Virus record (IMG/VR): IMGVR_UViG_2778261537_000017
Coordinates: 1-16,061 of that record
DNA length: 16,061 nt
Origin: a virus
Lineage: Duplodnaviria > Heunggongvirae > Uroviricota > Caudoviricetes
Reading direction: 5' to 3' (one strand)
Position 1 is the first letter of the stretch, and each line of letters opens with the position of its first letter. The position numbers and the translations under genes are program-made. Below the pieces are notes generated by a model, which saw only the letters and a list, made by a program, of their open reading frames with translations, was not told where the DNA came from and made no database searches. Positions 1-3,340 of this stretch are shown one piece after another.

Positions 1-624
1 GCCGGTAAGTAAGCCTTGAGGAACTCGCTTGTCGGCTAGACATTGGGTTCCGCGAATTATGTTAATCAGAGGGCTTAGTAACGATGGTTCCTGGCGGGCC
101 TCAACTTCTCCAGCCATTGCCCTGATGTAGTCGGCGCTTGCAACGTTGTTATATTCCGTTGCGAAGCAGCATAACAACGACAGAACGTGCTCTGTCGTTA
201 TTTCGCTCCAGTTGATGTTGAAAAATTCATCGCCTTTTTTGTCGTGTTCGGAATCGAAGATGCTTTGGTGGAGGATGTATTTGCCGGATTCTTTGCGCGG
301 TAACTTGATCGCTTTCTGGCGTTCCAGCTCCTTGTAAATCTGCATTGCTTCAATTAGTACCGGCCTGCCGTTCATGAAGGGATCGCGCAACCTTACACGC
401 TGGCCAACTCGACCCGTAATAAAGCTGTTTTCCTCTTCCACCAGCACGATAAAACCCTTTTCCTCTTTTTCTCGCAATTCGCGCAGCAGCTGGAGTTCCA
501 TATCGCGGCGGCGTTCAGGGTAGCTGGTCCGCTCAGCCATTATCAGCTCATTGTTGATCCATGCGGCAGTCATTGACGCCGGTTTGCCGACGCTCATCGA
601 AACAACGCATATTTTCTTATCCAT
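1..624 (-). CDS. mat: Phage protein at the P1 mat position (downstream of ref); N-terminal 208 codons only, C-terminus lies beyond the window
   Basis: Minus-strand frame is open from the ATG at 624-622 down to position 1 (I checked every in-frame triplet; no stop). RBS AAGGGG lies about 7 nt upstream. Translation begins MDKKICVVSMSVGKPASMTAAWINNELI. Not in the ORF track because no stop falls inside the window. The mat assignment is by position only. Confidence 0.6.
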   Translation of the reverse strand, partial: MDKKICVVSMSVGKPASMTAAWINNELIMAERTSYPERRRDMELQLLRELREKEEKGFIVLVEEENSFITGRVGQRVRLRDPFMNGRPVLIEAMQIYKELERQKAIKLPRKESGKYILHQSIFDSEHDKKGDEFFNINWSEITTEHVLSLLCCFATEYNNVASADYIRAMAGEVEARQEPSLLSPLINIIRGTQCLADKRVPQGLLTG

Positions 625-813
625 AGCGCCCCTTATAAAAAAGAAAAGCCACCAGCGGCGGCTTAGCAATACAACTGAAGGTAGCGCCCGGTACTCAGAC
701 TGTGCCGTCCATGGAATATTTGAAAAGGGATCCATCCGTACCGGGCATGTGATGATTCTGACTGAAGTCACTTGTCAGTTGTCAATTATTTCAGATTAAA
801 AATAATATATTTA

Positions 814-1379: not shown

Positions 1380-1405
1380 AAAAAAAAGGCGGCCTGATGG
1401 CCGCC
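1380..1405 (-). terminator. Intrinsic-terminator-like hairpin plus U8 in the ref leader, ending 5 nt before the ref ATG
   Basis: Plus strand is A8 (1380-1387) followed by GGCGGCC-TGAT-GGCCGCC (1388-1405). On the minus-strand RNA this reads GGCGGCCAUCAGGCCGCC UUUUUUUU GCCAU AUG. Confidence 0.5.
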
Positions 1406-1461
1406 AATGATGTCAAGGAGTTAAGTAATGGCAACGTCTTCGTAGTTGACAAAAACTGCGG

Positions 1462-1489
1462 CTCAATTATAGCAATCAATTAGAGCAAT
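1462..1489 (-). promoter_or_regulatory. Paired C1-repressor operator-like sites (Op2a/b-like) overlapping a TATAAT upstream of ref
   Basis: caatcaattagagcaat (1473-1489) matches the reverse complement of the P1 operator consensus ATTGCTCTAATAAATTT at 14/17; a weaker overlapping copy aattatagcaat lies at 1465-1476. The minus strand reads TTGCTATAATTGAG. Confidence 0.6.
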
Positions 1490-1595
1490 GGTAGAGATTT
1501 TGTTTATCGCGAATCACATTTTTTCACTTCAGTACCTGTGTGCTATACTCCTTCTTGATTGATTGGATGCGGAATACAAACCCGCTCTTTTGTGC

Positions 1596-1623
1596 AGCCT
1601 GGCTCCTTGCCAGGCTTTTTTTA
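1596..1623 (+). terminator. Plus-strand intrinsic terminator (8-bp stem, 5-nt loop, T7 tail)
   Basis: AGCCTGGC-TCCTT-GCCAGGCT followed by TTTTTTT. In the minus orientation the hairpin is followed by CACAAAAGAG, so it is effectively plus-strand specific. Confidence 0.5.
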
Positions 1624-1932
1624 TTTCATCATGGAAGCTGTTAATGCTTTGGACCTTGCTGAACTGATTGAGAGGGCTTTGTCAACGTGCCCCAAAAATT
1701 CGCCAAACTCAGACATCACTTTAGCAAAACCGCGCCGTGCTTCTTCCTCGGTGGCATTCATCACGAAATGTTCAGCACTACGCATACTTCTGACAGGGAA
1801 CGCAACGGATATTGAGTCAATATCAGGCATTCTATCGCTCAGCTTTACAGTGACAATGACGGCTGGCGACTGAATATTAGTGCTCACTGACAGCACTACA
1901 TATTTTCCGTCGATGTTGAAATTCTTTCTCAT
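1621..1932 (-). CDS. cra: Cra-like small protein (gene between cre and ref), 103 aa
   Basis: Complete ORF with ATG at 1932 and a GGTGA RBS. Sits where P1 has cra. Function assigned by position only. Confidence 0.6.
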   Translation of the reverse strand: MRKNFNIDGKYVVLSVSTNIQSPAVIVTVKLSDRMPDIDSISVAFPVRSMRSAEHFVMNATEEEARRGFAKVMSEFGEFLGHVDKALSISSARSKALTASMMK

Positions 1933-1948
1933 ATGTCACCATAAATAT

Positions 1949-1965
1949 CAAAGAATTAGAGCAAT
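1949..1965 (-). promoter_or_regulatory. C1 operator-like site between the cre stop and the cra start
   Basis: caaagaattagagcaat matches the reverse complement of the operator consensus at 13/17, with the AGAGCAAT core intact. Confidence 0.45.
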
Positions 1966-1982
1966 CATTTACGCGTTAATGG

Positions 1983-3014
1983 CTAATCGCCATCTTCCAG
2001 CAGGCGCACCATTGCCCCTGTTTCACTATCCAGGTTACGGATATAGTTCATGACAATATTTACGTTGGTCCAGCCACCAGCTTGCATGATCTCCGGTATT
2101 GAAACTCCGGCGCGGGCCATATCTCGCGCGGCTCCGACACGGGCACTGTGTCCAGACCAGGCCAGGTACCTCTGACCAGAGTCATCCTTAGCCCCGTAAA
2201 TCAATCGGTGAGTTGCTTCAAAAATCCCTTCCAGGGCGCGAGTTGATAGCTGGCTGGTGGATGATGGCGAGGCAACACCATTTTTTCTGACCCGGCAAAA
2301 CAAGTAGTTATTCGGATCATCAGCCACACCAGAGACGGAAATCCATCGCTCGACCAGTTTAGTTACCCCCAGGCTAAGTGCCTTCTCTACACCTGCGGTG
2401 CTAACCAGCGTTTTCGTTCTGCCAATATGGATTAACATTCTCCCACCGTCAGTACGTGAGATATCTTTAACCCTGATCCTGGCAATTTCGGCTATACGTA
2501 ACAGGGTGTTATAAGCAATCCCCAGAAATGCCAGATTCCGTATATCCTGGCAGCGATCGCTATTTCCCATGAGTGAACGAACCTGGTCGAAATCAGTGCG
2601 TTCGAACGCCAGCGCCTGTTTTGCACGCTCACCGGCATCAACGTTTTCTTTTCGGATCCGTCGCATGACCAGTGAAACAGCATTGCTGTCACTTGGTCGT
2701 GGCAGCCCGGACCGACGATGAAGCATATTTAGCTGGCCCAAATGTTGCTGGATAGTTTTCACTGCCAGACCGCGCGCCTGAAGATATAGAAGATAATCGC
2801 GAACATCTTCAGGTTCTGCGGGAAACCATTTCCGGTTATTCAACTTGCACCATGCCGCCCATGACCGGCAAACGGACAGAAGCATTTTCCAGGTATGCTC
2901 AGAAAACGCCTGGCGATCCCTGAACATGTCCATCAGGTTCTTGCGAACCTCATCACTCGTTGCATCGACCGGTAATGCAGGCAAATTTTGGTGTACGGTC
3001 AGTAAATTGGACAT
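1983..3014 (-). CDS. cre: Cre site-specific tyrosine recombinase, 343 aa
   Basis: Translation MSNLLTVHQNLPALPVDATSDEVRKNLMDMF... matches P1 Cre along its length as I recall it. Catalytic residues are in place (GHSARVGAAR, GGWTN, MNYIRN). loxP lies about 420 bp upstream. Confidence 0.97.
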   Translation of the reverse strand: MSNLLTVHQNLPALPVDATSDEVRKNLMDMFRDRQAFSEHTWKMLLSVCRSWAAWCKLNNRKWFPAEPEDVRDYLLYLQARGLAVKTIQQHLGQLNMLHRRSGLPRPSDSNAVSLVMRRIRKENVDAGERAKQALAFERTDFDQVRSLMGNSDRCQDIRNLAFLGIAYNTLLRIAEIARIRVKDISRTDGGRMLIHIGRTKTLVSTAGVEKALSLGVTKLVERWISVSGVADDPNNYLFCRVRKNGVASPSSTSQLSTRALEGIFEATHRLIYGAKDDSGQRYLAWSGHSARVGAARDMARAGVSIPEIMQAGGWTNVNIVMNYIRNLDSETGAMVRLLEDGD

Positions 3015-3021
3015 TTAACAC

Positions 3022-3243
3022 TCAGATAATGGTTTTAAGTAAAGTGTACAGGATCGGCTCTGCCTTTACCTGTTTATGGTTCTCGTCATAGAAACGCCAG
3101 CGACCGCGCGTGCGTTCTATTTTCTCTTCACCGCGCGATAATGACAGTTGACAACTATCACGATCAAACCCTTTTGCCCGCCAGTAACCACGGTTTTTCT
3201 CAAGCTCAATATGAGTGGACACTTTAGCAGCTGAATATCCCAT
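3022..3243 (-). CDS. Hypothetical 73-aa protein immediately upstream of cre
   Basis: Strong RBS (AGAGGTGAAAA then ATG at 3243). Its TGA stop lies 7 nt before the cre ATG. Basic protein (MGYSAAKVSTHIELEKNRGYWRAKGFDRDS...). I do not recall an annotated P1 gene here, so it may instead be non-coding cre promoter sequence. Confidence 0.4.
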   Translation of the reverse strand: MGYSAAKVSTHIELEKNRGYWRAKGFDRDSCQLSLSRGEEKIERTRGRWRFYDENHKQVKAEPILYTLLKTII

Positions 3244-3340
3244 TTTTCACCTCTGATTGATTGGTGGTGCTAAGTGCGCTACGCGAAATCTGGAGCACTA
3301 ACACTGCCAACATTTCGCAGATTTTACGTAGCGCAACCTT

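What the first reader, a model, noticed from the sequence alone, without database searches (positions are those of the whole stretch)
1523..1623. Candidate small plus-strand RNA between ref and cra
A plus-strand promoter-like element (TTCACT, 15-nt spacer, extended -10 TGcTATACT at 1541-1549) is followed about 50 nt later by a clean plus-strand intrinsic terminator (8-bp stem and T7 at 1596-1623). An internal GCGG...CCGC hairpin is also present. All flanking genes are on the minus strand, so this would be a roughly 70-nt antisense or independent sRNA overlapping the cra 3' end and the ref 5' region.
Basis: seen in the sequence. Interest (0 to 1): 0.5.

Follow-up and report, generated by a model that had tools for sequence, protein, structure and literature searches.

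The report
Unannotated small RNA gene in P1-like phages
Between the c8 and ref genes of a P1-type phage-plasmid lies a very strongly conserved, promoter-to-terminator unit that most likely makes a ~66-nt regulatory RNA whose first ten bases match the ribosome-loading regions of several phage genes, including the gene just upstream of cre; it is not annotated in phage P1 or in Rfam.

Summary
An extended -10 (TGcTATACT, 1541-1549) is followed by a 4-bp hairpin and a strong plus-strand intrinsic terminator (1596-1622). One correction: the flanking gene is c8, not cra.

Across c8-anchored P1-like loci, the block from the -10 to the terminator is the least variable DNA nearby. Only 10 of 67 columns vary, against 50 of 103 c8 third-codon positions and 86 of 99 upstream intergenic columns. 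T-run length varies from 5 to 9, which excludes a reading frame through it.

The 5'-terminal GAUUGAUUGG is almost invariant. Its complement occurs 4 times in 50 kb of the element, against 0.17 expected. Three copies lie in translation-initiation regions:
- directly before the Shine-Dalgarno sequence (SD) of cra, window 3255-3264;
- before an unannotated 28-aa hydrophobic ORF in the C1-controlled pmgT (Op88) leader;
- in pmgS codons 7-10.

Best reading: a new Hfq-type, trans-acting phage sRNA with a 5' seed, which is also unavoidably antisense to any c8-to-ref read-through.

There is no Rfam match, no GenBank or RefSeq annotation and no paper found. Expression, Hfq binding and regulation are untested. 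Covariation has no statistical power here.

The parts
1521..1526 (+). -35-like hexamer TTTTCA, with a 17-nt spacer to the -10. Weak and probably dispensable.
   Evidence: Found by the promoter scan. All 6 columns vary among relatives. Two Tn3-family insertions sit between it and the -10.
1541..1549 (+). Extended -10 promoter element TGcTATACT.
   Evidence: Only 1 of 11 columns in 1539-1549 varies among 56 distinct c8-anchored sequences.
1557..1622 (+). Predicted ~66-nt small RNA. The start site is inferred at G1557 (+/-1) and the 3' end in the T-run.
   Evidence: The fold shows a free 5' end, a small hairpin and a terminator. Diversity is pi 0.011, with 10 of 67 columns variable. There is no Rfam family at gathering score.
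1557..1570 (+). 5' seed GAUUGAUUGG(AUGC), predicted single-stranded.
   Evidence: Nt 1-9 are invariant in all 19 distinct variants and position 10 varies in 4. The complement CCAATCAATC occurs 4 times in L183 against 0.17 expected. It is the most enriched 10-mer complement along the RNA.
1569..1585 (+). Internal hairpin GCGG-loop-CCGC.
   Evidence: One variant keeps the stem through G-C to G-U plus a new G-C. One variant lengthens it and one singleton breaks it.
1586..1595 (+). U-rich single-stranded linker UCUUUUGUGC, a possible Hfq contact.
   Evidence: Read from the sequence and fold. The Hfq role is inferred from established knowledge of Hfq-binding modules.
1596..1622 (+). Intrinsic terminator: 8-bp stem, loop UCCUU, U-tail. 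It abuts and overlaps the c8 stop codon (1621-1623).
   Evidence: The stem is invariant except for one C-G to U-G change, the other changes are in the loop, and the T-run length ranges 5-9. It is not a terminator on the minus strand, where no U-tract follows (sequence).
3255..3264 (-). Candidate target site CCAAUCAAUC in the cra translation-initiation region. It sits at -21..-12, directly 5' of the SD GAGGUG.
   Evidence: It is invariant in 120 of 120 loci. It is present in P1 downstream of P3cre. It is predicted accessible, with duplex energy -17.8 kcal/mol.
1621..1932 (-). c8 gene, convergent with the sRNA. Any read-through of c8 towards ref is fully complementary to the sRNA.
   Evidence: There is no minus-strand terminator between 1621 and 1405. 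A natural deletion removes about 1521-1917, taking the sRNA promoter and c8 together.

Best explanation
The region is a self-contained gene for a non-coding RNA of about 66 nt, carried by P1-like phage-plasmids.

Transcription. It starts about 7 nt after an extended -10 promoter, which needs little or no -35. The C1 operator Oref does not overlap this promoter, so the RNA is probably made in lysogens. Transcription stops at a strong intrinsic terminator that abuts the c8 stop codon.

Architecture. The RNA has the layout of an enterobacterial Hfq-type sRNA:
- an unpaired 5' seed (GAUUGAUUGGAUGC);
- a small hairpin;
- a U-rich linker;
- a terminator hairpin with a tail of 6-8 U in most variants.

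Proposed action. The seed pairs with CCAAUCAAUC motifs placed immediately upstream of the Shine-Dalgarno sequence (SD) of cra, the first gene of the cra-cre unit. It pairs likewise upstream of a 28-aa hydrophobic leader ORF that opens the C1-controlled pmgT (Op88) early operon, and more weakly inside the first codons of pmgS. Pairing would limit ribosome loading or mRNA stability.

Because the gene converges on c8, the RNA is also perfectly antisense to any c8 transcript that reads through towards ref.

Shown here: the anatomy, the purifying selection, the non-coding nature, and the enrichment, conservation and predicted accessibility of the seed sites.

Inferred: transcription, the exact ends, Hfq dependence, and the direction and size of any regulation.
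For: (1) Anatomy. The extended -10 and the strong terminator are 47 nt apart, and the 5' end is unpaired.

(2) Selection, in 56 distinct c8-anchored sequences.
- 10 of 67 columns vary in 1557-1623 (pi 0.011).
- c8 third-codon positions: 50 of 103 (pi 0.095), Fisher p = 7e-6.
- Upstream intergenic region: 86 of 99 (pi 0.115), p = 4e-21.
- c8-cre intergenic region: 23 of 50, p = 3e-4.
- The conserved block begins at the -10, where 1 of 11 columns varies, whereas all 6 columns of the -35 vary.
- Relatives that differ by 12% over 201 bases carry almost all their differences left of the -10.

(3) Non-coding. T-run length is polymorphic (5-9), and every plus-strand ORF found runs through the terminator.

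(4) Strand. The two stem substitutions are G-C to G-U and C-G to U-G. Both pair on the plus strand and would be A-C mismatches on the minus strand.

(5) Seed.
- Nt 1-9 are invariant.
- The complement of nt 1-10 occurs 4 times in 50 kb against 0.17 expected, and none of 100 shuffles reached 4.
- It is the most enriched 10-mer complement along the RNA.
- Three of the four copies are sense-strand initiation regions: cra at -21..-12, the pmgT-leader ORF at -25..-16 (extendable to 14 bp), and pmgS at +21..+30.
- These sites are conserved: 120 of 120, 66 of 85 with the full 14-bp form, and 59 of 62.
- They are present in P1 itself.
- They are predicted to be open, with duplex energies of -16 to -22 kcal/mol.
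- Shuffled seeds reach a 12-nt perfect match anywhere in the element in only 3.4% of trials.

(6) The locus is widespread and unannotated. It is in 695 of 5426 complete E. coli genomes and 700 PLSDB plasmids, and no RNA feature is listed under the match in the rows shown.
Against: - No expression data of any kind were available. The promoter is a consensus match, and such matches are not enriched locally.
- Covariation gives no support. The stems hardly vary, and shuffles equal the observed scores.
- Seed position 10 changes (G to A or U) in four haplotypes without a compensating change in the cra or leader sites.
- Three loci have a 4-nt deletion in the leader site, again uncompensated.
- A Salmonella plasmid that has lost c8 and the sRNA keeps all the sites.
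- P1's own leader site pairs over only 11 nt.
- The pmgS site lies outside the usual window for blocking initiation.
- The fourth motif copy is antisense inside a gene.
- Enrichment of a 10-mer could instead reflect a DNA or RNA motif recognised by some other factor, or duplicated leader modules. The minus strand of the sRNA locus itself reads site + AAGGAG.
- Two transposon insertions between the -35 and the -10 are tolerated.
Confidence: 0.55

Rival explanations
1. The RNA is made but acts only in cis, as a convergent antisense RNA of the GadY type. It would pair with the 3' untranslated part of c8 transcripts that read through towards ref. That would trigger RNase III processing or transcriptional interference, and so uncouple c8/cre transcription from the toxic, C1-controlled ref gene. 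Under this view the seed matches elsewhere are incidental.
For: - The geometry fits. The sRNA converges on c8 and abuts its stop codon.
- No minus-strand terminator lies between the c8 stop (1621) and the ref leader terminator at 1405-1388, so read-through RNA would be perfectly complementary.
- A natural deletion removes the sRNA promoter and c8 as one block.
- Ref is harmful to the host and is repressed at several levels.
Against: - A cis-antisense RNA keeps its complementarity whatever mutates, so it does not explain near-invariance of every unpaired base.
- It also does not explain the 24-fold excess of seed complements at distant initiation regions.
- In four relatives ref is replaced by an oppositely oriented antirepressor gene, yet the sRNA is unchanged.
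Confidence: 0.2
2. No sRNA is made. The conserved block would serve the minus strand or the DNA. Options are a c8 3'-end stabilising hairpin, a relic or functional 'site + SD' leader module (AUCCAAUCAAUCAAGAAGGAG), or a binding site for a protein that recognises CCAATCAATC. The plus-strand terminator would merely stop stray antisense transcription from entering c8 and cre. The promoter match would be accidental, being the reverse complement of AAGGAGTATA.
For: - The opposite strand folds equally well.
- Promoter-like matches are at chance frequency.
- The minus strand of the locus has the same site-plus-SD layout as the cra and pmgT-leader initiation regions.
- The motif persists in a plasmid that lacks the sRNA.
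- In some relatives a plus-strand antirepressor gene lies upstream and could use the terminator.
Against: - No start codon follows the minus-strand SD-like sequence.
- The conserved TGTGCTATA part of the -10 lies outside that SD-like sequence.
- The terminator is oriented for the plus strand only. In this window and in P1 no plus-strand gene lies upstream of it.
- The wobble substitutions fit plus-strand pairing only.
- Three of the four motif copies are on the sense strand next to start codons, which a DNA site would not require.
Confidence: 0.15
3. The region encodes a small protein on the plus strand, for example the 25-34-aa frames that start at 1540, 1563 or 1567.
For: ORFs of 34 aa are listed on the plus strand at 1540-1644 and 1563-1667.
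Against: - Both frames run through the terminator and its T-run.
- The T-run length varies from 5 to 9 among relatives, which would shift the frame.
- No Shine-Dalgarno sequence precedes the AUG at 1567.
Confidence: 0.02

Closest known systems
c4 antisense RNA of phages P1 and P7 (immI region)
   Same: It is encoded by the same phage. It is a short trans-acting RNA that represses phage genes (icd/ant) by pairing through short complementary stretches at a ribosome-binding region, and it acts in the lysogen alongside C1. This is established knowledge (Citron and Schuster 1990, cited).
   Different: c4 is cut out of the operon transcript that it regulates and lies next to its targets. The present RNA has its own promoter and terminator, sits in the c8-ref spacer, and its candidate targets are 1.7 to 18 kb away. 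The Rfam search of the region at E <= 10 gave no C4-family match.
OmrA/OmrB (Rfam RF00079), Hfq-dependent sRNAs of E. coli
   Same: The layout is the same: a 5'-terminal seed, an internal hairpin and a terminator with a long U-tail. OmrA nt 10-18 (AUUGAUUGG) are identical to nt 2-10 of this RNA.
   Different: There is no overall homology, and no OmrA-B hit even at E <= 10. This RNA lacks the CCCAGAGG 5' end, which by my recollection of the literature carries most known OmrA/B pairings. A shared 9-mer is within chance for a post hoc comparison.
GadY, a cis-encoded sRNA between gadX and gadW
   Same: It is also encoded on the opposite strand of the spacer between two co-directional genes, overlaps the 3' end of the upstream gene's mRNA, and is Hfq-associated. 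It is the model for the cis-antisense rival.
   Different: The Rfam GadY score is 13.4 bits against a gathering score of 45, which is a chance-level match. GadY has no known regulon of distant seed sites.
Other phage or prophage sRNAs: DicF, the lambda lytic-cycle sRNA and svsR (listed); IsrK; VpdS of phage-plasmid VP882 (recalled, not retrieved here)
   Same: They are small base-pairing RNAs carried by temperate phages that tune phage or host genes after transcription (papers listed).
   Different: None was compared with this RNA at the sequence level here, and none is reported from P1-like elements. None of the papers found mentions this locus.

Membership tests
Hfq-type trans-acting sRNA of enterobacteria | Independent transcription unit with its own promoter. 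| tested here: inconclusive
   The extended -10 TGcTATACT is nearly invariant (1 of 11 columns vary) and the conserved block starts there. No transcript data exist.
Hfq-type trans-acting sRNA of enterobacteria | Rho-independent terminator with a U-tail of about 6-7 or more. | tested here: met
   8-bp stem with 6 G-C pairs. The T-run (counting the stem's last T) is 7-8 in the two commonest variants and ranges from 5 to 9.
Hfq-type trans-acting sRNA of enterobacteria | Conserved single-stranded seed with complementary sites at target initiation regions. | tested here: met
   Nt 1-9 are invariant. The complement occurs 4 times against 0.17 expected, with three copies at initiation regions, and these are conserved and predicted accessible. 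This is in silico only.
Hfq-type trans-acting sRNA of enterobacteria | Binding to Hfq and Hfq-dependent stability or action. | not testable with these tools
   Only a U-rich linker and the U-tail are visible. P1vir growth is impaired without Hfq, but that is not specific to this RNA.
Any Rfam 15 family (including OmrA-B, GadY, SorX, C4) | Covariance-model score at or above the family's gathering score. | tested here: not met
   No hits at gathering score in the whole window. The best sub-threshold hit is SorX at 22.6 bits against 46.6, and its aligned identities are concentrated in the terminator hairpin.
Cis-antisense RNA (GadY-like, 3'-end overlap) | A sense transcript exists that overlaps the RNA. 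| tested here: inconclusive
   The RNA overlaps only the c8 stop codon. No minus-strand terminator lies before 1405, so c8 read-through is plausible but not shown.
Type I toxin-antitoxin pair (small hydrophobic toxin plus RNA antitoxin) | A small hydrophobic ORF whose translation is blocked by the RNA and which is harmful without it. | tested here: inconclusive
   A 28-aa hydrophobic ORF with a 14-bp seed site beside its SD exists in the pmgT leader. A plasmid lacking the sRNA keeps the ORF intact. The ORF matches no known family. Toxicity was not tested.

The most novel reading that the evidence does not exclude
The RNA is a second 'immunity-type' riboregulator of P1-like phage-plasmids. It would be made in the lysogen and use one 10-nt seed to hold down three things:
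- cra-cre recombinase expression;
- the leader peptide and downstream genes of the C1-controlled Op88 (pmgT) early operon;
- a morphogenesis gene (pmgS).

It may also be the true determinant of the classical c8 clear-plaque (lysogeny establishment) phenotype. That phenotype was assigned to the neighbouring ORF by map position only. This last point rests on my recollection of the P1 literature and was not verified here.
Probability: 0.2. Interest if true: 0.75.

Novelty: new member of a known kind. Interest (0 to 1): 0.6.

Why it matters
P1 is one of the most used phages in genetics, both for transduction and for Cre-lox. P1-like phage-plasmids sit in about one in eight complete E. coli genomes and carry resistance genes.

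Two regulatory RNAs are known in P1: c4 and, by my recollection of the literature, the antisense RNA of the lytic replicon. A third, conserved sRNA would add a post-transcriptional layer to the lysis-lysogeny and plasmid-maintenance circuitry, with predicted sites at cra (the gene preceding cre) and at the leader of a C1-controlled early operon. It would also explain why a 'spacer' is more conserved than the genes around it.

The finding also points to an unannotated 28-aa membrane peptide. And it gives a concrete, cheap set of experiments.

Tried and rejected
- **Rfam.** Nothing at gathering score. The sub-threshold hits (SorX, Hrs12, GcvB, GadY) are far below their gathering scores, and the one alignment printed for this strand (SorX) matches mainly the terminator hairpin.
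- **Covariation.** With 13 distinct variants the stems are almost invariant. The count of structure pairs and RNAalifold give no signal above shuffles. The lower GGA/UCU stem is broken in 5 of 13 variants and was dropped.
- **Coding potential.** Rejected because of the T-run length polymorphism.
- **Long-query duplex scans.** RNAduplex with 38-40 nt of the RNA against all candidate initiation regions was uninformative, because shuffled queries scored better. The 16-nt seed scan by energy alone was also within the shuffle range. Only exact-complement counting was discriminating.
- **Pairing with the ref leader/attenuator** (a possible antiterminator role). No better than shuffles.
- **Co-loss test.** The one sRNA-less plasmid examined keeps all the sites.
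- **Compensatory seed/site changes.** None found.
- **Paralogue search with a covariance model.** It found only a weak (17-bit) match to the antisense strand of the pmgT leader.
- **C8 homologues.** All hits listed are at least 81% identical, and nearly all named ones are from E. coli, so no distant relatives were available to add divergence.
- **Literature.** Six full-text searches, a sequence-string search and five papers read. None mentions an RNA here. The P1 genome paper and the 1988-89 ref papers are not held.
- **Host targets.** They could not be screened, because no whole E. coli genome was available to the script tool.

Full report
**1. What the window is**

The window is a P1-like phage-plasmid. 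BLAST of 1380-1700 finds phages P1 and P7 and related Escherichia and Salmonella phages at 90-99% identity.

In the P1 and P7 GenBank records the gene order is cra, cre, c8, ref. All four are on one strand, which is the minus strand of the window. In window coordinates:
- ref ends at 814 and starts at 1377;
- c8 is 1621-1932;
- cre is 1983-3014;
- cra is 3022-3243.

So the finding lies in the c8-ref spacer, not 'between ref and cra'. P1's record annotates the ref promoters and the C1 operator Oref at about window 1407-1494 on the minus strand. It annotates nothing on the plus strand between there and c8.

**2. The observation**

- TGcTATACT lies at 1541-1549. TTTTCA lies 17 nt upstream of the TATACT hexamer.
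- A GCGG/CCGC hairpin lies at 1569-1585.
- A plus-strand terminator lies at 1596-1616, with 8 pairs of which 6 are G-C, followed by T6 and then A.

Promoter-like matches are at chance density (7 against 6.5 expected), so the promoter match alone is weak. The terminator is among the two best of eight (3.6 expected).

The RNA folds with a free 5' end, a small hairpin and the terminator (-23.2 kcal/mol, z = -3.1). The opposite strand folds as well, so folding energy does not identify the strand. On the minus strand no U-tract follows the hairpin, so it terminates plus-strand transcription only.

**3. Conservation**

Window, P1 and P7 are identical over roughly 1506-1616, apart from the length of the terminator T-run. 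Their flanks differ.

PLSDB holds 700 plasmids with the locus. Relatives about 12% divergent over 201 bases carry nearly all their differences left of the -10.

To avoid selecting on the element itself, I anchored on the C8 protein. Of the 80 viral contigs retrieved, 69 could be placed on the c8 DNA. Together with the window they gave 56 distinct sequences, and I measured diversity per column.

| Region | Variable columns | pi | Fisher p vs 1557-1623 |
|---|---|---|---|
| sRNA 1557-1623 | 10 of 67 | 0.011 | - |
| c8 third-codon positions | 50 of 103 | 0.095 | 7e-6 |
| Spacer 1440-1538 | 86 of 99 | 0.115 | 4e-21 |
| c8-cre spacer | 23 of 50 | 0.086 | 3e-4 |
| c8 second-codon positions | 15 of 103 | 0.017 | 1.0 |

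The low-diversity block begins at the extended -10, where 1 of 11 columns varies. The -35 is not conserved (6 of 6 columns vary), as expected for an extended -10 promoter.

Two independent Tn3-family insertions have their junction at about 1533-1535 and leave the -10 intact. Low diversity continues about 35 nt into the c8 C-terminus.

**4. Non-coding, and which strand**

The terminator T-run ranges from 5 to 9 T among variants. All plus-strand ORFs of 30 aa or more cross it, so the region does not encode a peptide.

Substitutions inside the RNA are few.
- Loop and linker changes.
- A G-C to G-U change in the small hairpin, accompanied by a new G-C pair.
- An insertion that lengthens that stem.
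- A C-G to U-G change at the top of the terminator.
- One singleton that breaks the small stem.

The two wobble changes pair on the plus strand only. Formal covariation tests have no power and give no signal.

**5. The 5' end and its complements**

Nt 1-9 (GAUUGAUUG) are invariant in all 19 distinct variants. Position 10 varies in four.

I fetched a complete element identical to the window over this locus (query 1440-1640): CP027320.1, 78.9 kb. I scanned it with the 16-nt 5' end.

The best non-self hit is 14 contiguous pairs, of which 12 are Watson-Crick, at L183 33587-33600. This lies in the leader of pmgT, just downstream of the C1 operator Op88 and its promoters. It ends 3 nt before AGGAG-N8-ATG of a 28-aa hydrophobic ORF, MNTAFKIIMAAIYFWLFSITFGGIVAHG. 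That ORF is unannotated in P1. The SJ46 record lists a 'membrane protein' among the features under the match to this region. Shuffled seeds reach a 12-nt perfect match in 3.4% of trials.

A check of nearby start regions then showed the same 10-mer, CCAAUCAAUC, directly before the SD of cra, at window 3264-3255 (positions -21..-12).

Counting exact copies gives four in the 50-kb locus L183, which excludes the sRNA gene. The expectation is 0.17, and none of 100 shuffles reached four.

Scanning all 10-mers along the RNA, the 5'-terminal one is the most enriched.

Three copies lie on the sense strand at initiation regions: cra, the pmgT-leader ORF, and pmgS codons 7-10. The fourth is antisense inside a gene near ban and is probably chance. 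Initiation windows make up only about 3% of both strands. So three of four landing there has a probability of roughly 1e-4 by a simple binomial estimate (my calculation, not a tool result).

The sites are conserved:
- cra, 120 of 120 loci;
- pmgT leader, 66 of 85 with the full 14-bp form; two substitution variants keep pairing as G-U, and three loci carry a 4-nt deletion;
- pmgS, 59 of 62.

All three exist in P1 itself. All are predicted to be open, with opening energies of 0.1-2.5 kcal/mol and duplex energies of -16 to -22 kcal/mol. The leader region around the site and the start of the small ORF is itself an island of low diversity.

**6. Points that weaken the target model**

- Seed position-10 variants and the leader deletion are not compensated.
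- A Salmonella IncY plasmid has a clean deletion of about 1521-1917, which removes the sRNA promoter through c8. It keeps every site. So the RNA is not indispensable.
- The minus strand of the sRNA locus reads AUCCAAUCAAUCAAGAAGGAG. This is the same 'site + SD' layout as the targets. The antisense strand of the pmgT leader looks like a miniature 'seed + terminator'.
- This suggests that the sRNA arose from an inverted copy of such a leader. It also leaves room for the view that the motif is a leader module with some other function.

**7. How it most likely works**

I favour a constitutively transcribed, Hfq-type base-pairing RNA. Its 5' end would occlude the region just upstream of the SD of cra and of the Op88 leader ORF, and so damp these genes in the lysogen.

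As a by-product of its position, it is antisense to c8 read-through towards ref. The ref gene is toxic and multiply repressed.

Steps shown: the anatomy, the selection, the non-coding nature, and the seed-site statistics. Steps inferred: transcription, the exact ends, Hfq dependence and the regulatory outcome.

**8. Comparison with what is known**

No Rfam family matches. PGAP and GenBank records list only c8 or nothing under the locus in the rows shown, across 699 E. coli records. No paper in the library mentions the locus.

The nearest functional analogue is P1's own c4 RNA. The nearest architectural analogues are 5'-seed sRNAs such as OmrA, which shares AUUGAUUGG but is not homologous.

The candidate is therefore a new member of a known kind, not a new kind.

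**9. Verdict**

Confidence is about 0.7 that a real sRNA gene is here, summing the trans-acting and cis-only readings. It is 0.55 for the specific trans-acting seed model.

Interest is 0.6. This would be a new, conserved regulator in a classic model phage, with directly testable targets. It still lacks any expression evidence.

Noticed in passing
window 1388-1405 (minus strand), T8 to 1380; ref ATG at 1377: A strong minus-strand intrinsic terminator sits between the ref promoters/Oref and the ref start codon, ending 3 nt before the ATG. It is presumably the 'attenuator' named in the title of Windle et al. 1988 (references). P2ref to this terminator would give a C1-controlled leader RNA of about 80 nt. 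Rfam gives only weak terminator-type hits there.
   Followed up: partly
window 1955-1965 (minus strand): A perfect 11-nt C1-operator core, ATTGCTCTAAT, lies between the cre stop and the c8 start. It is not annotated as an operator in the P1 record. It hints that c8 may be C1-controlled.
   Followed up: no
L183 33615-33701 (CP027320.1), equivalent to the P1 pmgT leader; outside the window: An unannotated 28-aa hydrophobic ORF (MNTAFKIIMAAIYFWLFSITFGGIVAHG) with a good SD lies between Op88 and pmgT. Its first two-thirds are very conserved while pmgT itself is highly variable. Its coding part also occurs on about 280 other plasmids without the 5' site. The P1 record notes identity to sequence downstream of hsdR on R124/3. 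It matches no family.
   Followed up: partly
L183 33564-33586 (minus strand): The hairpin in the pmgT leader is an intrinsic terminator on the antisense strand (10 pairs, then T4AT4). It is directly preceded by GATTGATTGGAT, making a miniature copy of the sRNA's seed plus terminator. The covariance model scores it at 17 bits. No antisense promoter was predicted.
   Followed up: partly
L081 about 990 and L096 about 3115 (equivalent to window 1533-1535): Two different Tn3-family transposons are inserted at almost the same point, between the -35 and the extended -10 of the sRNA promoter, in two metagenome-derived P1-like contigs.
   Followed up: partly
L003, L004, L007, L008 (E. albertii and E. 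coli plasmids), left of the region equivalent to window 1440: In these relatives ref is replaced by a plus-strand KilAC-domain antirepressor gene that converges on the sRNA locus. The Oref/P2ref segment is kept and would now fire antisense into that gene.
   Followed up: no
L010 / L271 (Salmonella plasmid pCFSAN058545_02), junction equivalent to window 1521 | 1917: A natural deletion removes the sRNA promoter, the sRNA and all but the first few codons of c8 as one block. ref and cre are left adjacent.
   Followed up: yes
window 1-625 (minus strand) and 646-664: Where P1 has mat, downstream of ref, this element carries a different minus-strand ORF with its own terminator. So the element differs from P1 in gene content just left of ref.
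   Followed up: no
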